Part shown: positions 29,598-58,326 of the stretch, piece by piece
Position numbering within the stretch: the stretch's first letter is position 1
How the letters are laid out: every line of letters begins with the position of its first letter
Sequence record: PZ379176.1
DNA length: 64,000 nucleotides
Strand: one strand, 5' to 3'
Origin: a phage
Program-made: the position numbers and the translations under genes
The notes under the pieces: generated by a model
The model's input: the letters and a program-made list of their open reading frames with translations, nothing else
The model's database searches: none
What the model was told of the DNA's origin: nothing

Positions 29598-30013
29598 CTT
29601 ATATCCTTTACTTTTTAGCTTTCTTAGGAATAATCTTTTTATCTATTATTCTTGAATTTGGTTTAAGTAGGTTAGTTAATTATTTAGGTAATAAGTAATT
29701 AATATTCTTTTAAATAGAGAATCAAAGTCCCTAGGAGTCCCTACAACCTAAATCAAGGATTCCTTAATTCTCTATTTTTATCTCGCAGGTGGCTCCTGCC
29801 CTTCGGTACTTGCAAGGGATTCTGTGAATTGCCCAATATACAAGCCTGCAATAACTTTATCAGCTATACAATATATACATTACTAGTGTGTTATATCTAC
29901 TACCAAAGATACTTATATTATATAGTACTCTTATCGGTATAAGCGTAATGTATACTATACATAACCGCTCAAAGAGAGCAACAATCTTTCAAATTAAATA
30001 AGGAAATTAAAAT
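29598..30013 (+). promoter_or_regulatory. 416-bp AT-rich ORF-poor region upstream of the SSB-like gene with inverted and direct repeats and TAATGTATA motif copies on both strands; candidate promoter hub and/or replication origin
   Basis: AAATAGAGAAT (29712-29722) / ATTCTCTATTT (29767-29777) inverted repeat flanking two GTCCCTA direct repeats; TAATGTATA at 29946-29954 (+) and 29874-29882 (- strand reading). Confidence 0.45.
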
Positions 30014-34335: not shown

Positions 34336-34737
34336 ATGGCGAAGTCTGAGAAGACTCGCTGTAGTGGAATGTGGACTGAAGCTCGTTACAACTCTTTCAT
34401 CAAGTCAGGGATTCGTTCTCTGACTAGAAAGTGGAAGCCTATGTTCGATGCACTAGCAGACGCCAAGACAGAGCAGAAGATTAATCCAAAGACAGGAAGA
34501 CTGGCAATGCACTTTAAGTGTGCCATGTGTGGTTCTGACCACCCTGTAAAGGATATGGCTATTGACCACATAGAGCCTATAGTTCCCTTAGATCATGAAG
34601 CAACTTGGGATGAAATCATCTCTCGTGCTCTGTGTGAGAAAGAAGGTTTTCAGGTTCTGTGTAAAGACCCTTGTCATAAGATTAAAACAAAAGAAGAGAA
34701 TGATGCAAGAAAACAATTCAAAAAAGGAAATGAGTGA
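34336..34737 (+). CDS. HNH-motif endonuclease
   Basis: CAMCGS...AIDHIEP...LCKDPCHKIK His-Me finger-like pattern. Confidence 0.5.
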   Translation: MAKSEKTRCSGMWTEARYNSFIKSGIRSLTRKWKPMFDALADAKTEQKINPKTGRLAMHFKCAMCGSDHPVKDMAIDHIEPIVPLDHEATWDEIISRALCEKEGFQVLCKDPCHKIKTKEENDARKQFKKGNE

Positions 34738-52104: not shown

Positions 52105-54846
52105 TTACTTAACTGGCATCTCTACACGAACTGAGATAAAAGCATCACTTGGAATATCAATAGGATCTCCATCAGAAAAACCTTCTATCTCATTTCTAGC
52201 AAAAACTGGAGAGGTCGGGTGAGTTCTGTGATAGGTTTTAACTAAAATAGAACCATCCTCTTTAACCTTATAATCTAACCAAATTCTAGGCTGCTTGTTG
52301 CGGTCTACAGGGATTTCAAACCCACCATCCACCCCACCCCAACTAGCGTCTACGTTTAAACCAAGGCAACCAGTAATCAAATATTCACCAATACCTTGCC
52401 GAATGACACTAACCCCCTCAGACTCATCATTCGTTTCATATCGACCGTCAGAGTAAACTTTAACTATCGGAGATGCCGCTTTGATGAATCCATTTACATC
52501 AACAGTGGTATTTTTGTCTGTGAGACACTGAACATATTTTGTTGTCCCATCTGCAACTTTTATCGCGTAAATTACACGACCATACCCTGAGGCCGCACCA
52601 CCAACCCCTGCGTATGACACAGCGTGAGCAATCCAGAAGTTAGTATCCTCTGGCTGCATATACCAATAGCAGTTAAACATGTCTACAGTAAACATGCCAT
52701 TCCCGGCGACGTGCTGGACTCGAGCACCAGTACCACCTGTACCTGTATTTGCTGGAGTGTTGCTCAATGCTCCAATATTTCTCAGAGCACCATCAGCATC
52801 TGTTGCCCCGGTTCCCCCTCTTCCAACTGACAAAGCTACATCACCAGCTAATCCAGATATGGTACGGTAACACCCCCATCCGTTATTATCGACAAACATG
52901 TAAGTTTCTTTATTCGGAGAAAAGATTTTAGTCTCCACAGAACTTTGTTCTACTCTGTCTACTCCTAAATTAGACTTAGCACCCGCAGCAGTGCTAGCAC
53001 CTGTACCGCCATTTGCCACTGGAATATTATCTAGTGTAGAAACAGAACCAAGTCCTAAATTAGATCTGGCGTCACTGGCATTCTTCGCCCCTGTACCGCC
53101 ATTTGCCACTGGAATATTATCTAGTGTAGAAACAGAACCAAGTCCTAAATTAGATCTGGCGTCACTGGCATTCTTCGCCCCTGTACCGCCATTTGCCACT
53201 GGAATATTATCTAGTGTAGAAACAGAACCAAGTCCTAAATTAGATCTGGCGTCACTGGCATTCTTCGCCCCTGTACCGCCATTTGCCACTGGAATATTAT
53301 CTAGTGTAGAAACAGAACCAAGTCCTAAATTAGATCTGGCGTCACTGGCATTCTTCGCCCCTGTTCCACCCTGAGTAACAGACAGTGCTGTCGTAAGTCC
53401 AGTCATAGATGTTATATCAGAGTTTGCACCAGCAGCAGCAGCACCTAATATAGACCTGGAGATATTGACGTTACCTGTAGTTTCATCAGGAGCTTGGTTG
53501 TTTACAGTGACTACATAAGGAACCTGAGACTGAACCCCACCTTTGTAATTAGCATCTTTACTAGAATCAGGGGAGCGAATAGCCTCACCACCTGTCCAAT
53601 CTGGAAGACGTATATTAATGAAGTTAGTGGCATCCGCATCAGTTACACCATCAGTGAGTTTACCCCAAGAGAAATACTGACGAGCACCAGCTTGCCACTC
53701 TGTTTCAGAGACCACAGGAAGCTGACCACTGACTAGAGATGGGCCTAAGTCTAGAGCAGACTCTTTTGACACCAAACGACCATCGGCAGGAAGAACCCCC
53801 GGATATGAGATATTCTTCGTTGGGTCGTAAGGAAACATTACCATCTCGCCAAGATACAGAGATGGGTTTCCTGTTGGAATGGTAATGTCAATGTTACCAC
53901 TAGAGTCTGGAGAACGGGAGTTAACGGTAAGGATTCTACCTTCAGTTTTAACAGGAGTTAGTGTTTTGTTAGCAGCAACCGTATAGAATTCATACTTAGT
54001 AGCTTCCCAAACTAAGACCTGCTCTCCAACTTGACGGTACTGAGCATCAGCATCAGCTTCTGCTTTTGATTGGTATGTCTTGGTAGTTTTGTCAAACTTG
54101 TCATTAATCTCTTGACGGCTGTATTGAGCAACGTTCAGAACATTCCCTAAACCTACTGTCTCTTTGTTAAACGTTAGAGCAACCTCTCCATCAAGAGCTG
54201 GACCCCCATTAACAGAAACAGAACGAACAACAGATGGGATTAAGTTAGCAATGTTCTCTAGAGTGGTTTTGTGGACAGTATTGTCATCTTTGTCAACATA
54301 GAAACCTAAGTCACCTAACTCTGGAACACCGGTAGGTGCTGTATCTAAATCCTTAACAGAACCATCCTTTCCGGGATCACCTTCTGGAATACCTAAAGAG
54401 ATTACACCAGTGGTCGGATTAAAAGAACCAGTAGCCGGAGTTCCCGGAGGAAGTGTAGTTACGTCAACGGACATTCCTAACAGAATATCAAGCTGATTCT
54501 GAACTTCAATAAGTTTCTGATTAATGAGAGCAACAGCATTGTTAGCATCAGAGACTGCTGCGTTAGTTTGAGCAATCAAGCTCATCAGACGAGCATCTTG
54601 ATCTATAAAATCCTGCTTAAGATCTTCGATATCCTGCTTCATCAGAATACCTTGTTGATACAGACGTTCTACTTCAGCAATCAAATCATCAATCGTACCA
54701 AACTTAGACTCCGCTAGCAGTGCCCAATATTTGGAGTCAGCTGCGTATTCTGCTGCTTGCTTATAAGCTCCGATAGAGCCTTCAGTAGCACCAAACTGCC
54801 CAACGTTATTCACTGCATCAGGTGCTTGGTTATTATAAACGATCAT
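52105..54846 (-). CDS. long tail fiber protein (913 aa) with four identical 30-aa tandem repeats
   Basis: Repeated GGTGAKNASDARSNLGLGSVSTLDNIPVAN units; N-terminal coiled-coil. Confidence 0.6.
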   Translation of the reverse strand: MIVYNNQAPDAVNNVGQFGATEGSIGAYKQAAEYAADSKYWALLAESKFGTIDDLIAEVERLYQQGILMKQDIEDLKQDFIDQDARLMSLIAQTNAAVSDANNAVALINQKLIEVQNQLDILLGMSVDVTTLPPGTPATGSFNPTTGVISLGIPEGDPGKDGSVKDLDTAPTGVPELGDLGFYVDKDDNTVHKTTLENIANLIPSVVRSVSVNGGPALDGEVALTFNKETVGLGNVLNVAQYSRQEINDKFDKTTKTYQSKAEADADAQYRQVGEQVLVWEATKYEFYTVAANKTLTPVKTEGRILTVNSRSPDSSGNIDITIPTGNPSLYLGEMVMFPYDPTKNISYPGVLPADGRLVSKESALDLGPSLVSGQLPVVSETEWQAGARQYFSWGKLTDGVTDADATNFINIRLPDWTGGEAIRSPDSSKDANYKGGVQSQVPYVVTVNNQAPDETTGNVNISRSILGAAAAGANSDITSMTGLTTALSVTQGGTGAKNASDARSNLGLGSVSTLDNIPVANGGTGAKNASDARSNLGLGSVSTLDNIPVANGGTGAKNASDARSNLGLGSVSTLDNIPVANGGTGAKNASDARSNLGLGSVSTLDNIPVANGGTGASTAAGAKSNLGVDRVEQSSVETKIFSPNKETYMFVDNNGWGCYRTISGLAGDVALSVGRGGTGATDADGALRNIGALSNTPANTGTGGTGARVQHVAGNGMFTVDMFNCYWYMQPEDTNFWIAHAVSYAGVGGAASGYGRVIYAIKVADGTTKYVQCLTDKNTTVDVNGFIKAASPIVKVYSDGRYETNDESEGVSVIRQGIGEYLITGCLGLNVDASWGGVDGGFEIPVDRNKQPRIWLDYKVKEDGSILVKTYHRTHPTSPVFARNEIEGFSDGDPIDIPSDAFISVRVEMPVK
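53001..53360. repeat. 4 perfect tandem copies of a 90-bp unit inside the tail fiber gene
   Basis: Unit starting ctgtaccgcc and ending ttcttcgccc repeated at 53001, 53091, 53181, 53271; degenerate copies flank. Confidence 0.95.
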
Positions 54847-54855
54847 ATTATCTCC

Positions 54856-55632
54856 TTATACACGAGAAGTACGAATACCATAAATATCAGGCAGGCTGCT
54901 CTGAAGTCGAGTCATGTTATTCGGAATTGCGATAGGTGAACCTGAGTACTCTTGTTTCTTATTCTGCTCTACCATTTCATCAAGGATAGCTTTTCCTAAT
55001 GCTGACCATTTCTGAACACCATTATCATCTTGAACAAACAAGCAAGCATGACGTAGTGTGAAGTACAGAAGAAGTTCTGGTGCGATAGTAAGAATAGCAC
55101 TAGTGTCTGTATCTTCGTGGAATTCCGGTGGATCTGCATAATAACTGAGAATCACTGAGTTTTCTGCTGGAATCAAAGGGCTTCCATCATCAGGATAAAC
55201 AGGAGTATCTGCTTCAATACTAGGGTAGAAAATGAAACGACTCCCGAAACGAGCAAAGTTAACAGGTTGGTTATTCCAGTGAGATGGATTAACTGTTCCA
55301 TGCTGTCTACGATAGCTAATCTCTTCAGGAGATGTTACTTGGAAGATTGCACCATCTTTGGCTCTCATCATCCATTGAGCTTCTAAGTAATCAGGAGGAA
55401 TATAAGCCACTCCATCTTTGATATCTAAATACACTTCTTTTTCCAGAGGAGGGATTCGTAAGTTACGATAAATCTCTTTCTCTGCAAAGTTAATAAAGTT
55501 TGGAATTTGATTAACAAATTCATCATCGTCCCTATCTGCCCAGAGGGCCACGGCCTTCTTTAGCCACCCATAGGTATTGATGGGGTATTGAACTTCAGGC
55601 AACATAGGATACCTCCTTCCAGTTTGTGCCAT
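54856..55632 (-). CDS. virion structural protein (possible head-tail adaptor)
   Basis: ORF track; position between capsid module and fibers. Confidence 0.4.
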   Translation of the reverse strand: MAQTGRRYPMLPEVQYPINTYGWLKKAVALWADRDDDEFVNQIPNFINFAEKEIYRNLRIPPLEKEVYLDIKDGVAYIPPDYLEAQWMMRAKDGAIFQVTSPEEISYRRQHGTVNPSHWNNQPVNFARFGSRFIFYPSIEADTPVYPDDGSPLIPAENSVILSYYADPPEFHEDTDTSAILTIAPELLLYFTLRHACLFVQDDNGVQKWSALGKAILDEMVEQNKKQEYSGSPIAIPNNMTRLQSSLPDIYGIRTSRV

Positions 55633-56107
55633 TGATTATTAGGCTTATTGTGCTTGAAGAGACTCCAAACTTCCTAGCTAAAGCTCTAGCTCCGAACTGT
55701 CTGTCCCTCGGTTTATAGTTCTCTAAACAGAAAAGAACTTGTTCTTTAGTAAGTTTGGAATTAGGATTATCCTCAAGATTTCTTGGTGTTGAGAGTTTTG
55801 TTTCATAAGCATGTACACAGTTTTCTTGTTGAGTACACCACTCTAGATTCTCAATCCTGTTATCATCTTTTATTCCATTCTTATGGTTGACATAATCCTT
55901 CCCTTCTACCTTAGGAAGAAAAAGTTCAGCTATGACCCTATGCTCTAAATATGATTTCTTTTTAAAAGTCACTTTACGATAACCTCTGTCGCCAATACAC
56001 CCGGCACGTTGTCCTTTCTGCTTATTAAAGATGTTACTCATAGACCAGAAAAGATGCCCTGTATTTGGATCATAGGTAAAAGCTTCTCTGAAATCAGGCA
56101 TTGCCAT
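55595..56107 (-). CDS. HNH homing endonuclease (freestanding, inside structural module)
   Basis: YVNHKNGIKDDNRIENLEWCTQQEN HNH segment; C-terminal helix-turn-helix-like region. Confidence 0.65.
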   Translation of the reverse strand: MAMPDFREAFTYDPNTGHLFWSMSNIFNKQKGQRAGCIGDRGYRKVTFKKKSYLEHRVIAELFLPKVEGKDYVNHKNGIKDDNRIENLEWCTQQENCVHAYETKLSTPRNLEDNPNSKLTKEQVLFCLENYKPRDRQFGARALARKFGVSSSTISLIINGTNWKEVSYVA

Positions 56108-56141
56108 AGTGTGTCCTCCTAGTTATGTATAGACAAAGAGA

Positions 56142-56150
56142 ATACATTAC
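56142..56150 (-). promoter_or_regulatory. TAATGTATT (8/9 match to TAATGTATA) on - strand about 36 nt upstream of the HNH gene
   Basis: Plus-strand AATACATTA at 56142-56150. Confidence 0.3.
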
Positions 56151-56175: not shown

Positions 56176-56200
56176 GAGAAAACCCCGCCCGAAGGCAGGG
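56176..56200 (-). terminator. rho-independent terminator after the capsid/Ig-like genes
   Basis: Minus strand CCCTGCC-TTCG-GGCGGGG followed by TTTTCTCGTTT. Confidence 0.55.
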
Positions 56201-56209
56201 TAAGGGTTA

Positions 56210-57235
56210 TTACGGCTTAGGTGTTACATTGGTTAAATTGAAAGTAGAAGTAACAGAGGTTTTAATTTTGTGAGTAGCTTTAATAGTTACAGCACCACTG
56301 GCTGTGTCAGCCAAGGTCAGTAACCCAGAAGTATTCACTGTACCAGCTTCTGTCGGAGTGACTACAAAGTTGTAATCAGATGCCGCAGAGTTAGTTACTG
56401 TAAACATATCAGCAAACGCGAGTGTATCACCGCCCACTTTGTCCGCAACGGTAGCTTTAGCCACGATGGTTGGAAGAGGGGTTACGCCATTAATATTAGC
56501 AGTTGCAGTAACAGAGGTTACCGTCTTGTGAGTAGCTTTAACAGTTACGTTACCGCTAGCCGTACCAGCTAAAGTGAGCTGACCAGCAGCATTCACTGTA
56601 CCAGCAGCAGATGGAGTTACTACAAAATTATAGTCACTAGCAGCTGAGCGTTGAACAGTAAACATATCTGTAAAAGCGACACTGTCTCCACCAGATTTTC
56701 CAGTAATAGCAGCTTTAGCTACAATAGTTGGAGGCTGAGGGTTGACAACAATATTAATCACTTTAGTGACAGAAGGTTTAGTAGAGGATTTAACTGTAAG
56801 AGTAGTGCTACCTGCTGCAACAGCAGTTACACGACCAGCAGCTGTTACCGTAGCCTTAGTCTGATCTGCAATTTCCCAGGTAACACCTTGAGGTGCACCA
56901 GCAGGAGATACAGAAGCAGTCAGGTTGGTAGCATCTGGAACAGTTATGGTGAGAGTATCACCAGTTAGACCACCACCAGTTACAGCAATGGAAGCTGGGT
57001 CAGGGATTGGAGCTTTAATTTCCGAGATAACGGCAGTGCCTGATACACCTTTAAGAGTAGCAGTCACTGTAATATCAGCGGTTTGAGGCGAACCCGGAGC
57101 AGTGAACAGCCCAGAAACAGAAATAGCCCCACCACCGGCTACTGACCAATCGAAGCCTGTAGTAGATGTGGAGCCATCGCTTAGTTCTGCTTCAGCTGTA
57201 AACTGTTGGGTAGCCCCGGTCAGCAGACTTGCCAC
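56210..57235 (-). CDS. Ig-like (Big_2-type) domain protein, candidate capsid decoration or fiber protein
   Basis: Repeated T/A/V/S-rich segments. Confidence 0.45.
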   Translation of the reverse strand: MASLLTGATQQFTAEAELSDGSTSTTGFDWSVAGGGAISVSGLFTAPGSPQTADITVTATLKGVSGTAVISEIKAPIPDPASIAVTGGGLTGDTLTITVPDATNLTASVSPAGAPQGVTWEIADQTKATVTAAGRVTAVAAGSTTLTVKSSTKPSVTKVINIVVNPQPPTIVAKAAITGKSGGDSVAFTDMFTVQRSAASDYNFVVTPSAAGTVNAAGQLTLAGTASGNVTVKATHKTVTSVTATANINGVTPLPTIVAKATVADKVGGDTLAFADMFTVTNSAASDYNFVVTPTEAGTVNTSGLLTLADTASGAVTIKATHKIKTSVTSTFNLTNVTPKP

Positions 57236-57267: not shown

Positions 57268-58326
57268 TTACGCCCCCGCCTTTCCCGCAGCGGTGAACAG
57301 TACACCAGAAGCATACGGGTTGCGGTGACGCAGACCAACTTCCATTTCAATCATCCACTTCTCGTAAGAACCATCTTTTGCTAGTTCAGTACGTTTCGGA
57401 GCACGCAGAACCATCTGAGTCCAGTCAGCGCTACGGAAGAAGTAAACTGCATCGGTAGGCATCCAACGGTTAACGATGATTTTGTAGCTCTGGCCCAGCG
57501 GGTCAGTGATGCTATTAACTTCGTAGATGAACTGCTTGGTGTTCTCAAAGATACGCTTACGTGAACCCTGAGTATTTTCTTGCAGACCAGCGAAGATCTT
57601 AGCATGAGCCGGGTTAATCATGATGATATCTGCTTCAGAACCAGCGGTATACAGTTGCAGAGTCATATCAAAGATATCAGCTTCGTCGAAACCAATGTTA
57701 GTGGTCGGGTTAGAAGCATTCTGTGCAACTTTAACAGTCACTGCACCAGTATCCGGGTCAGCAGGACCATTCTTGGTCTTGTCAACAACGCCACCAGCCA
57801 GACCACCGTGAGCACACAGGAACTGGAATGCACCAGTCTTACGAGCTGCATGGGTGTCATTCAGACCAACAACAGCAGGATCAGTTGCAGAGTTAGTCAG
57901 ATACTGGTCAGCCAGAACGTCGGTACGAGCCTGACCGGACAGAAGGATTTTCTCGAGGTCACGCTTGATCTCTTTACCTTTCTTCTCCAGCTGATACATC
58001 AGTTCACGACCACGACCGTAGTTAGCGGTGGTGTTAGCAGTATCAGAAACACGAACAACCTTACGCAGAATCTGAGTAACGTTAGATTTGATAACAGTCG
58101 GTTTCATTTCACCGTCTTCAGCACGAGAGCCTTCGACGTGTGCGTTATTACCGTCAACGCTTGCCAGTGCATCGGTCTGCCAGCTAAAGATAGTCTGGTT
58201 GATAGACTCTTTACCGGTCATAGATACGAACGGGGTATCCTGAGGGGACAGAACAGAAATCCAGTTAGCAAAAGAAAGTTTTTTACCATTCTGGTCATAC
58301 GATACAAATAAAGTTGGATTAGCCAT
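57268..58326 (-). CDS. major capsid protein
   Basis: 352-aa ORF immediately downstream of acidic scaffold gene and portal. Confidence 0.65.
   Translation of the reverse strand: MANPTLFVSYDQNGKKLSFANWISVLSPQDTPFVSMTGKESINQTIFSWQTDALASVDGNNAHVEGSRAEDGEMKPTVIKSNVTQILRKVVRVSDTANTTANYGRGRELMYQLEKKGKEIKRDLEKILLSGQARTDVLADQYLTNSATDPAVVGLNDTHAARKTGAFQFLCAHGGLAGGVVDKTKNGPADPDTGAVTVKVAQNASNPTTNIGFDEADIFDMTLQLYTAGSEADIIMINPAHAKIFAGLQENTQGSRKRIFENTKQFIYEVNSITDPLGQSYKIIVNRWMPTDAVYFFRSADWTQMVLRAPKRTELAKDGSYEKWMIEMEVGLRHRNPYASGVLFTAAGKAGA

What the first reader, a model, noticed from the sequence alone, without database searches (positions are those of the whole stretch)
55595..56107. Freestanding HNH homing endonuclease between structural genes, with its own promoter-like motif
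An HNH endonuclease gene overlaps the start region of the downstream structural gene and is preceded by a near-consensus TAATGTATT motif and followed by structural genes. A second HNH-motif protein lies at 34336-34737. Such elements are mobile and mark recombination hotspots; their presence may differ between otherwise syntenic relatives.
Basis: partly seen in the sequence, partly recalled or inferred. Interest (0 to 1): 0.4.

Follow-up and report, generated by a model that had tools for sequence, protein, structure and literature searches.

The report
Mobile HNH nuclease gene in phage
A phiEco32/SU10-like E. coli phage carries an optional, probably selfish HNH nuclease gene inserted into the first codons of a virion adaptor gene; it borrows that gene's promoter and start, which is an ordinary arrangement already annotated in sister phages.

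Summary
Positions 55595-56107 (minus strand) encode an intact 170-aa HNH_3 nuclease whose predicted fold matches only I-HmuI in the PDB. The window is a Kuravirus-like E. coli podophage.

The gene is a 499-nt insertion present in 12 of about 100 related phage records, always at the same site. It is absent from the two closest relatives whose site I inspected (ShigP1, Bas90).

Two parts of the interpretation need correcting:
- **Promoter.** The TAATGTATT motif is the resident late promoter of the adaptor operon. It is conserved at the same place in HNH-less phages and is described for SU10.
- **Position.** The element is not intergenic. It sits after codon 5 of the adaptor gene and takes over its promoter, Shine-Dalgarno sequence, ATG and "MAMPD". 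Its own last codons carry a replacement Shine-Dalgarno sequence and ATG for the adaptor.

All alleles are intact and under purifying selection. The window's allele is a recombinant of two known alleles, and recombination breakpoints fall at the element's borders.

The second HNH (34336-34737) is a conserved core gene, not a mobile one.

Verdict: a new allele of a known, already annotated kind of free-standing homing endonuclease. Cleavage activity and homing are untested.

The parts
55595..56107 (-). HNH endonuclease ORF, 170 aa (I-HmuI-like: N-terminal beta region, HNH beta-beta-alpha core, C-terminal helical/HTH region).
   Evidence: AF2 model pLDDT 89.4. The only significant PDB fold match is 1U3E I-HmuI, E 3.4e-6 over 167 columns.
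55594..56092 (-). The 499-nt insertion relative to HNH-less relatives. The empty site reads ATGGCAATGCCNGAN|GTTCAATA.
   Evidence: Alignment A1. Junction comparison of 11 filled and 9 empty sites.
56093..56107 (-). Captured adaptor start ATGGCAATGCCTGAT (MAMPD), now the first 5 codons of the HNH ORF.
   Evidence: It is identical in position and sequence to the adaptor start of phiEco32, SU10, ShigP1 and TH42. The MAMP start is kept even in adaptors only 51-54% identical, from HNH-less phages.
56141..56149 (-). TAATGTATT, the resident phage-sigma (phiEco32 gp36-type) late promoter motif of the adaptor/tail-fibre operon, now driving the HNH as first cistron.
   Evidence: PMC4281155: motif tAATGTAt; one late promoter lies between SU10 CDS10 and CDS11.
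56115..56120 (-). AGGAGG Shine-Dalgarno sequence, 7 nt before the ATG. It was ancestrally the adaptor's and is now the HNH's.
   Evidence: Sequence. Conserved in empty sites.
56182..56201 (-). Intrinsic terminator hairpin plus T-run after the Ig-like gene, upstream of the promoter.
   Evidence: Annotated as a terminator at the same place in SU10.
55811..55945 (-). HNH catalytic core, residues 55-99 (EHR...NHKNGIKDDNRIENLEW...EN..H).
   Evidence: H75, N83, N87, W90 and N96 are invariant in 102 homologues. Aligned to I-HmuI residues 37-99.
55634..55747 (-). C-terminal three-helix (HTH-like) DNA-binding region, residues 121-158.
   Evidence: Helices 121-130, 140-147 and 151-158 in the model. Weak fold hits to HTH domains, and a full-length match to I-HmuI.
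55612..55616 (-). Replacement Shine-Dalgarno sequence (GGAGG) for the adaptor gene, embedded in HNH codons K164-V166.
   Evidence: Sequence. W163 and K164 are invariant across 13 alleles down to 69% identity.
54856..55605 (-). Adaptor gene (SU10_adaptor), re-started at ATG 55605 (MLPEVQYP...). It overlaps the HNH stop by 11 nt.
   Evidence: Pfam PF24175, 4.5e-29. The same start is annotated in IME267, XT18 and MLP3.
56093..56101 (-). 5' copy of the junction direct repeat (ATGCCTGAT).
55594..55602 (-). 3' copy of the junction direct repeat (TTGCCTGAA here; ATGCCTGAT in Bas86, 1-6af, L020 and L021; ATGCCCGAT in L022).
34336..34737 (+). Second HNH-motif ORF named in the finding. It is a conserved core gene next to the 5'-3' exonuclease and is not part of the mobile element.
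   Evidence: PHROG 3106 at 5.9e-40; Pfam HNH only at E 0.025. Found in 98 related records at the same place, at 78-99% nucleotide identity.

Best explanation
The ORF is a free-standing, I-HmuI-like HNH homing endonuclease gene resident in a Kuravirus-type (phiEco32/SU10-like) phage.

**Shown**
- It is a derived 499-nt insertion placed after codon 5 of the virion adaptor gene.
- It has no promoter of its own. It is positioned to be read from the resident late promoter (TAATGTATT, recognised by the phage sigma factor), and it uses the adaptor's original Shine-Dalgarno sequence, ATG and first five codons.
- Its last codons (W-K-E-V-S-Y-V-A) carry a new GGAGG and ATG, so the essential adaptor is still made (MLPEVQYP instead of MAMPEVQYP).
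- Its presence is patchy among relatives. Alleles are intact and under purifying selection, and they recombine with each other.

**Inferred**
- During co-infection with an HNH-less relative, the monomeric enzyme binds a long asymmetric site in or near the conserved 5' end of the adaptor gene.
- It nicks or cuts that site. I-HmuI is a strand-specific nickase (my own background knowledge).
- Repair from the HNH-carrying genome then copies the cassette, with variable flanks, into the cut genome. This is intronless homing, also called marker exclusion.
- Embedding the adaptor's ribosome-binding site in the HNH ORF makes imprecise deletion lethal. The 8-9-nt direct repeat at both junctions would still allow a precise loss.
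For: **Domain and fold**
- Pfam HNH_3 and PHROG 59.
- AF2 model at pLDDT 89.4. Its only significant PDB fold match is I-HmuI 1U3E, over the full length. Sequence match to 1U3E has E 2e-4.
- Catalytic H75 and N96 are invariant in 102 homologues.

**Insertion anatomy**
- A1 and the junction tables.
- The empty state is ancestral: adaptors of HNH-less phages that are only 51-54% identical still start MAMP.

**Resident promoter**
- The motif is conserved in empty sites. The SU10 late promoter lies between CDS10 and CDS11 (PMC4281155).

**Patchy distribution**
- 12 records carry the HNH, against 100 records with an adaptor at least 60% identical.
- ShigP1 and Bas90, the best whole-region matches (about 95%), have empty sites.

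**Near-isogenic pairs with and without the gene**
- Bas86(+) and Bas87(-): adaptor 99.9%, upstream region 100%.
- IME267(+) and SU10(-): adaptor 99.9%.

**Site specificity**
- Alleles down to 69% amino-acid identity on metagenomic contigs all sit just upstream of the adaptor gene, overlapping its start.

**Selection**
- All 11 alleles are intact at 170 aa. dN/dS is 0.04-0.15.

**Recombination at the borders**
- The PAS59 HNH is 99.6% identical to IME267, but its adaptor is only 77% identical. The two sequences diverge from the 3' junction onward.
- The window's HNH matches 1-6af/FH3 at about 94-100% over roughly the first 280 nt. It matches IME267 at 98-100% from about nt 225 to the end.
- The upstream flank is of TH42 type up to the 5' junction.

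**Precedent**
- T4 free-standing endonucleases are promoter-less cassettes that use upstream promoters and embed downstream genes' expression signals (PMC2988022).
- I-HmuI-like HNH genes in Skunavirus phages cluster by insertion site and show marker exclusion (PMC12724721).
Against: - No cleavage, nicking or homing data exist for this enzyme or any allele. The target site is unknown.
- No co-conversion signature was found in adaptor SNPs among carriers of type-1 adaptors.
- HNH divergence partly tracks adaptor-type divergence (Bas86 HNH 70% with adaptor 77%; 1-6af HNH 85% with adaptor 84%). That is also compatible with long vertical residence plus occasional precise loss through the junction repeats.
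- The large Kuravirus-type block in IME267 runs from the Ig gene through the tail fibre. It may be an ordinary module swap rather than an HNH-driven one.
- The I-HmuI metal ligand D74 is N74 here, although N is the norm in this subfamily.
- The fold match has TM only 0.45.
Confidence: 0.7

Rival explanations
1. The gene is a domesticated accessory nuclease. It is kept because it benefits the phage, for example by degrading or excluding competitor or host DNA, stimulating recombination, or regulating the adaptor operon by binding the junction. It no longer spreads by homing.
For: - Strong purifying selection over the whole ORF.
- Deeply diverged alleles (down to 69% amino-acid identity) persist at the same site.
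- Late-operon expression context.
- The 3' junction keeps 8-9 nt plus the right half of the ancestral site, so a binding site could persist.
Against: - Absent from about 88% of close relatives, including near-isogenic ones, so it is dispensable.
- Its architecture is that of site-specific homing enzymes.
- Competitor exclusion and homing are not mutually exclusive.
Confidence: 0.15
2. The gene is an inactive relic of an old insertion. It is retained only because its 3' end now supplies the ribosome-binding site and start codon of the essential adaptor gene.
For: - The adaptor's Shine-Dalgarno sequence and ATG lie inside the ORF, and W163 and K164 are invariant.
- N replaces the I-HmuI metal ligand D74.
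Against: - dN/dS is 0.04-0.15 across the ORF, not only at the 3' end.
- All 11 phage alleles and 12 metagenomic cluster representatives are full length.
- Catalytic H75 and N96 are invariant.
- N74 is the family norm.
Confidence: 0.08
3. The gene is a packaging-associated HNH protein (HK97 gp74-like) that assists the terminase.
For: It lies in the late, structural gene block. HNH proteins are known components of some packaging machines (cited in PMC9965538).
Against: - It is not adjacent to terminase genes.
- It is absent from most relatives, which package normally.
- It belongs to a different HNH subfamily (HNH_3 with an I-HmuI-like DNA-binding architecture).
Confidence: 0.02

Closest known systems
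I-HmuI (Bacillus phage SPO1 DNA-polymerase intron endonuclease; PDB 1U3E)
   Same: - Same size: 170 aa here, 174 aa for I-HmuI.
- Same overall architecture in the model: N-terminal beta region, HNH beta-beta-alpha core, helical linker and C-terminal HTH.
- It is the only significant PDB fold match and the best PDB sequence match.
- H75, N83, N87 and N96 align position for position.
   Different: - I-HmuI is encoded inside a group I intron. This gene is free-standing, and Rfam finds no intron.
- Only about 21% identity, with TM 0.45.
- D74 in I-HmuI is N74 here.
- Nicking activity and target are unknown here.
T4-type free-standing homing endonucleases (seg and mob genes; 'intronless homing')
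   Same: - It is a promoter-less cassette that joins an existing polycistronic message.
- It overlaps its neighbour.
- It carries expression signals of the downstream essential gene inside its own ORF, which favours retention (PMC2988022).
- It is polymorphic in presence among related phages.
   Different: - The embedded signal here is the downstream gene's ribosome-binding site and start codon rather than a promoter.
- The cassette sits inside the first codons of the target ORF rather than in an intergenic spacer.
- The resident promoter depends on a phage-encoded sigma factor.
- Mobility has been shown for several T4 seg and mob genes but not here.
Aeromonas phage Aeh1 mobE, which splits nrdA ('genes in pieces')
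   Same: A free-standing HNH gene is inserted within a coding sequence without an intron or intein, and the host gene's function is kept through separate translation. The example is mentioned in PMC2988022; the details are from my own knowledge.
   Different: In Aeh1 the split yields two functional polypeptides. Here only a 5-codon stub is transferred to the HNH, and the adaptor loses one residue (MAMPE to MLPE).
I-HmuI-like HNH endonucleases of lactococcal Skunavirus phages
   Same: They are variable in number and position, cluster by insertion site, lie among structural genes, and show marker exclusion (PMC12724721).
   Different: Different phage group and host. No experimental data exist for the Gordonclarkvirinae element.
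Orthologous annotated genes: IME267 gp011 (YP_010673183), MLP3 UEN68515 'HNH homing endonuclease', XT18 WPK41846, Bas86_0007
   Same: Same site, same length (513 nt) and 69-93% nucleotide identity.
   Different: The window's allele is a recombinant: its 5' half is 1-6af/FH3-like and its 3' half is IME267-like. It sits on a TH42-type upstream flank, and the best protein match in the phage collection is 96% (tblastn 95.9%; the best cluster representative in the wider protein collection is also 96%).

Membership tests
HNH (beta-beta-alpha-Me) nucleases, Pfam HNH_3 | Profile match above the curated threshold. | tested here: met
   PF13392, 49 bits against a cutoff of 24.8, E 4.5e-13.
HNH (beta-beta-alpha-Me) nucleases, Pfam HNH_3 | Catalytic His and metal-binding Asn conserved within a beta-beta-alpha core. 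| tested here: met
   H75, N87 and N96 are invariant in 102 homologues. The model has strands 72-75 and 88-91 and helix 93-102.
I-HmuI-like homing endonucleases | Full-length architecture: N-terminal beta DNA-binding region, HNH core and C-terminal HTH. | tested here: met
   Foldseek against 1U3E: E 3.4e-6, probability 1.00, 167 aligned columns, but TM 0.45.
I-HmuI-like homing endonucleases | Encoded within a self-splicing group I intron. | tested here: not met
   No Rfam intron match at E <= 1. The ORF fills 498 of the 499 inserted nucleotides, leaving no room for a ribozyme core.
I-HmuI-like homing endonucleases | Site-specific single-strand nicking near the insertion site. | not testable with these tools
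   Needs a biochemical assay.
Free-standing homing endonuclease genes (intronless homing) | Endonuclease ORF outside any intron or intein, at a fixed site, present or absent among close relatives. | tested here: met
   12 of about 100 records, all at one site. Near-isogenic pairs with and without the gene.
Free-standing homing endonuclease genes (intronless homing) | The enzyme cleaves the endonuclease-lacking allele, and the gene is over-inherited in mixed infection. | not testable with these tools
   Needs cleavage assays and phage crosses.
Free-standing homing endonuclease genes (intronless homing) | Co-conversion of flanking markers, or recombination junctions at the element. | tested here: inconclusive
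   Breakpoints fall at the 3' border (PAS59 against IME267) and at the 5' border (window). No carrier-specific SNP tract was found in the adaptor.
phiEco32 gp36-type (phage sigma) middle/late promoters | tAATGTATA-type motif at a position orthologous to a described promoter. | tested here: met
   TAATGTATT at 56141-56149, enriched 7 against 1.5 expected. Same position as the SU10 late promoter between CDS10 and CDS11.
phiEco32 gp36-type (phage sigma) middle/late promoters | Transcription start 6-8 nt downstream of the motif, dependent on the phage sigma factor. | not testable with these tools
   Needs 5'-end mapping.
Packaging-associated HNH proteins (HK97 gp74-like) | Adjacent to terminase genes and conserved in all relatives. 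| tested here: not met
   The gene lies between the Ig-like and adaptor genes and is absent from about 88% of relatives.

The most novel reading that the evidence does not exclude
The element may be more than a passenger. It captured the adaptor's promoter, Shine-Dalgarno sequence and start codon, and it encodes the replacement ribosome-binding site in invariant W-K-E codons. This makes the endonuclease the obligatory first cistron of the late adaptor/tail-fibre operon. The protein might also bind the 3' junction, which retains much of the ancestral site, and so tune adaptor expression, much as I-TevI represses its own promoter. That would make it a homing endonuclease that is both 'addictive' and regulatory within a virion-assembly operon.
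Probability: 0.1. Interest if true: 0.5.

Novelty: new member of a known kind. Interest (0 to 1): 0.25.

Why it matters
- **Annotation and phylogeny.** The element marks a presence/absence polymorphism and a local recombination junction. These should be masked or modelled when comparing Kuravirus and Suseptimavirus genomes.
- **Gene calling.** The true adaptor start is 55605, not the longest-ORF start at 55632. The TAATGTATT promoter belongs to the operon, not to the HNH.
- **Biology.** It is a tidy, experimentally tractable example of a homing endonuclease gene inserted into the first codons of an essential virion gene without an intron. Natural near-isogenic phages with and without it (Bas86 and Bas87) are available in a public collection for crosses.
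- **Scope.** It does not open a new class of system.

Tried and rejected
- **Group I intron or intein context.** Rfam at E <= 1 found nothing relevant, and the ORF fills the insert.
- **RNA hairpins hiding either ribosome-binding site, as in T4 endonuclease genes.** Folding of both translation-initiation regions gave z-scores of +1.4 and +0.1, so there is no signal.
- **Sigma-70 promoter for the HNH.** The scan found none upstream, and counts matched the shuffles.
- **Paralogues in the window.** phmmer of the HNH against all ORFs of at least 50 aa found only itself.
- **Co-conversion tract in adaptor SNPs shared by carriers.** None was seen.
- **HNH-driven import of the Kuravirus-type block in IME267.** The block runs from the Ig gene through the tail fibre, so it looks like an ordinary module swap.
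- **IMG/VR scan with the adaptor protein.** It returned only 8 loci, none with the HNH. It served only to show that the MAMP start is ancestral.
- **Packaging-HNH reading.** Rejected on position and distribution.
Full report
**What the window is.** The 4.4-kb region around the finding matches E. coli and Shigella phages of the subfamily Gordonclarkvirinae (phiEco32, SU10, IME267 and others) at 81-96%. A 24-kb stretch is 95-96% identical to ShigP1, Bas91 and Bas90. On the minus strand the gene order is as follows:
- scaffold protein
- major capsid protein (57268-58326, SU10_MCP)
- Ig-like protein (56210-57235)
- HNH (55595-56107)
- adaptor (54856-55605, SU10_adaptor)
- tail fibre (52105-54846)

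**Observation check.** The ORF lies exactly at the stated coordinates on the minus strand and is 170 aa long. It matches Pfam HNH_3 at 49 bits (cutoff 24.8) and PHROG 59 at 5e-39. TAATGTATT lies at 56141-56149 (minus), 33 nt upstream of the ATG, followed by AGGAGG at 56115-56120. The motif TAATGTATW occurs 7 times in the window against 1.5 expected, and no shuffle reaches 7. The ORF overlaps the adaptor gene. All elements of the observation are real.

**Anatomy of the insertion.** I aligned the window and IME267 (both HNH+) with phiEco32 and SU10 (both HNH-). I then compared 11 filled and 9 empty sites.
- The empty allele reads ...TAATGTAT(A/T)-N20-AGGAGG-N7-ATGGCAATGCCNGAN|GTTCAATACCCC..., which is the adaptor start MAMP(D/E)VQYP.
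- In filled alleles the same promoter motif, Shine-Dalgarno sequence, ATG and first five codons are followed by the HNH reading frame (MAMPDFREAF...).
- The insert is 499 nt (56092-55594).
- It ends ...AACTGGAAGGAGGTATCCTATGTTGCCTGAA, directly followed by GTTCAATACCCC.
- So the last HNH codons (W-K-E-V-S-Y-V-A-stop) contain a GGAGG (55612-55616) and an ATG (55605), which restart the adaptor as MLPEVQYP. The overlap with the HNH stop is 11 nt.
- An 8-9-nt direct repeat of the target brackets the insert: ATGCCTGAT at 56093-56101 and TTGCCTGAA at 55594-55602. In other alleles (Bas86, 1-6af, L020-L022) the 3' copy is ATGCC(T/C)GA(T/C) and the adaptor starts MMPDVQY.
- W163 and K164, which encode the Shine-Dalgarno sequence, are invariant across 13 alleles down to 69% identity.
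- Adaptors only 51-54% identical, from larger HNH-less phages in IMG/VR, still begin MAMP. The empty site is therefore ancestral, and the first codons of the HNH were captured from the adaptor gene.

**The promoter is not the HNH's own.** The motif, its spacing and the Shine-Dalgarno sequence are conserved in every HNH-less relative examined. The SU10 genome paper states that phiEco32 middle and late promoters recognised by the phage sigma factor gp36 share tAATGTATAtA, 6-8 nt upstream of the start point. It also states that one of three SU10 late promoters lies between CDS10 (Ig-like) and CDS11 (adaptor), with a terminator in the same spacer (PMC4281155). The terminator is present in the window at 56182-56201 and is annotated in SU10. 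The HNH is thus a promoter-less cassette that became the first cistron of the late adaptor/tail-fibre operon. No sigma-70-like promoter lies upstream. No hairpin masks either ribosome-binding site.

**Distribution.**
- blastn and tblastn of the HNH find it at 90% or more amino-acid identity in 11 phage records: XT18, XT32, IME267 (two records), MLP3, TH06, TH38, PAS59, 1-6af, 1-6bf and FH3.
- One deeply diverged allele occurs in Bas86 (70% nucleotide identity).
- An adaptor at least 60% identical occurs in 100 records, so occupancy is about 12%.
- Every carrier inspected has the gene at the same site.
- ShigP1 and Bas90, among the closest relatives of the window, have empty sites.
- In the wider protein collection there is a tight clade of 12 cluster representatives (69-96% identity, 168-177 aa), then a gap to 50% or below.
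- The three diverged members I traced to contigs all sit immediately upstream of an SU10_adaptor gene, overlapping its start.

**Evolutionary signals (unless noted).**
- Near-isogenic flanks occur with and without the gene. Bas86(+) and Bas87(-) have adaptors 99.9% identical and upstream regions 100% identical. IME267(+) and SU10(-) have adaptors 99.9% identical.
- The PAS59 HNH is 99.6% identical to that of IME267, but its adaptor is only 77% identical (it is Bas87-type, 96.9%). The two genomes are 99-100% identical through the HNH and diverge from the 3' junction onward.
- The window's own HNH is a mosaic. It is about 94-100% identical to 1-6af/FH3 over roughly the first 280 nt. From about nt 225 to the end it is 98-100% identical to IME267.
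- The window's upstream flank is TH42/TH43-type right up to the 5' junction, while its capsid gene is ShigP1-type and its adaptor is Bas90/phiEco32-type.
- All 11 alleles are intact. dN/dS is 0.04-0.15.
- The first roughly 240 nt of the adaptor gene are a conserved island (83-95% identity between adaptor types that are otherwise 55-80% identical). This is the kind of target homing endonucleases favour.
- Against a simple homing history, carriers share no distinctive SNP tract in the adaptor. HNH divergence partly tracks adaptor-type divergence. The junction repeats would allow precise loss. The Kuravirus-type block in IME267 extends from the Ig gene through the tail fibre and may be an ordinary module swap.

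**The protein.**
- An AlphaFold2 model built on 102 homologues has mean pLDDT 89.4.
- Its only significant PDB match is I-HmuI (1U3E): E 3.4e-6, 167 aligned columns, TM 0.45. This agrees with the sequence hit (E 2e-4, residues 41-99).
- The model shows N-terminal beta strands, the HNH beta-beta-alpha core (72-102) and three C-terminal helices (121-158).
- H75, N83, N87, W90 and N96 are invariant in the family. Position 74 (Asp in I-HmuI) is Asn in at least 90% of homologues, so Asn is the norm for this subfamily rather than a defect.
- Many of the more distant relatives carry NUMOD4.
- No intron signature is present, and the window holds no paralogue.

**Mechanism.** The shown part is the insertion architecture and the expression logic described above. 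The inferred part is as follows. The gene is expressed late from the phage-sigma promoter. The monomeric enzyme binds a long asymmetric site in or near the conserved 5' end of HNH-less adaptor alleles during co-infection and nicks or cuts it. Recombinational repair from the carrier genome then copies the cassette. Co-conversion tracts vary, which leaves breakpoints at the element's edges. This matches what is established for T4 free-standing endonucleases. According to the Edgell/Gibb/Belfort review, these are promoter-less cassettes that harness upstream promoters. They overlap their neighbours and embed downstream genes' expression signals, which favours their retention (PMC2988022). I-HmuI-like HNH genes of Skunavirus phages also cluster by insertion site and show marker exclusion (PMC12724721). 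I put about 0.7 on active homing or marker exclusion. The rivals are a domesticated accessory nuclease (0.15), an inactive relic kept for the embedded ribosome-binding site (0.08) and a packaging HNH (0.02).

**The second HNH.** The ORF at 34336-34737 (+) matches PHROG 3106 at 5.9e-40, but Pfam HNH only at E 0.025. It follows the 5'-3' exonuclease gene. The region is present in 98 related records at the same place, with identity falling in step with genome distance (99% down to 78%). It is a core gene, and some records annotate it as a small terminase subunit (discussed in PMC9965538). It is not a mobile element comparable to the first HNH.

**Novelty.** The orthologous gene is already annotated as 'HNH endonuclease' or 'HNH homing endonuclease' in IME267, MLP3, XT18 and Bas86. 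The literature notes in passing that Gordonclarkvirinae loci are syntenic 'besides homing endonuclease insertions' (PMC11990801) and that YF01 has four HNH domains (PMC9965538). I found no description of the start-codon capture, the embedded ribosome-binding site or the allele mosaicism. These are variations on well-known themes. The verdict is a new (recombinant) member of a known kind, of low to moderate interest.

Noticed in passing
window 53000-53364 (tail fibre gene 52105-54846, minus strand): There is a perfect 90-nt tandem repeat, 4.1 copies at 100% identity. It encodes the 30-aa unit GGTGAKNASDARSNLGLGSVSTLDNIPVAN. Such perfect copies suggest very recent expansion, or copy-number variation, in the receptor-binding fibre.
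   Followed up: partly
window 56210-57235 (minus strand): The Ig-like decoration gene is 341 aa, with a GTG start in the ORF list, against 170 aa in phiEco32. It has an internal duplicated module of about 85 aa. It is a mosaic: 57350-56500 is 95-100% TH43/Bas88-like, while 56500-56150 has no match above about 83% among the loci compared. The length of this gene varies widely among relatives, from 399 to 1581 nt.
   Followed up: partly
window 23578(+), 29874(-), 29946(+), 39024(-), 39778(-), 42764(-): Six further TAATGTAT(A/T) motifs occur, presumably the other phage-sigma middle and late promoters. They include a divergent pair 72 nt apart at 29874 and 29946. I did not check their gene contexts.
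   Followed up: no
window 55605 versus 55632: The longest ORF for the adaptor starts at 55632 (258 aa, MAQTGRRYPM...). The conserved, Shine-Dalgarno-preceded start is 55605 (249 aa). Automatic gene callers could over-extend the adaptor into the HNH.
   Followed up: yes
L021 2522-2773 and L022 2349-2921 (metagenomic relatives): Extra small ORFs (83 aa and 190 aa, no Pfam hit) lie between the Ig-like gene and the HNH in two diverged relatives. The spacer upstream of the adaptor operon therefore accepts other insertions too.
   Followed up: no
Bas89 (PQ850613.1, about 41.4 kb) and phage 4E8 (OQ689734.1, about 42.1 kb): Other Gordonclarkvirinae carry a different HNH endonuclease at another locus. 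It shares only a 51-nt HNH-core match with this one, so several independent endonuclease insertions exist in the group.
   Followed up: no
IME267 locus L001 (NC_070983.1): IME267 is classified as a Suseptimavirus. Its backbone is Bas87-like up to the end of the capsid gene. From the Ig gene through the tail fibre it carries a Kuravirus-type (SU10/ShigP1-like, 97-100%) block, which is a structural-module swap across genera.
   Followed up: partly
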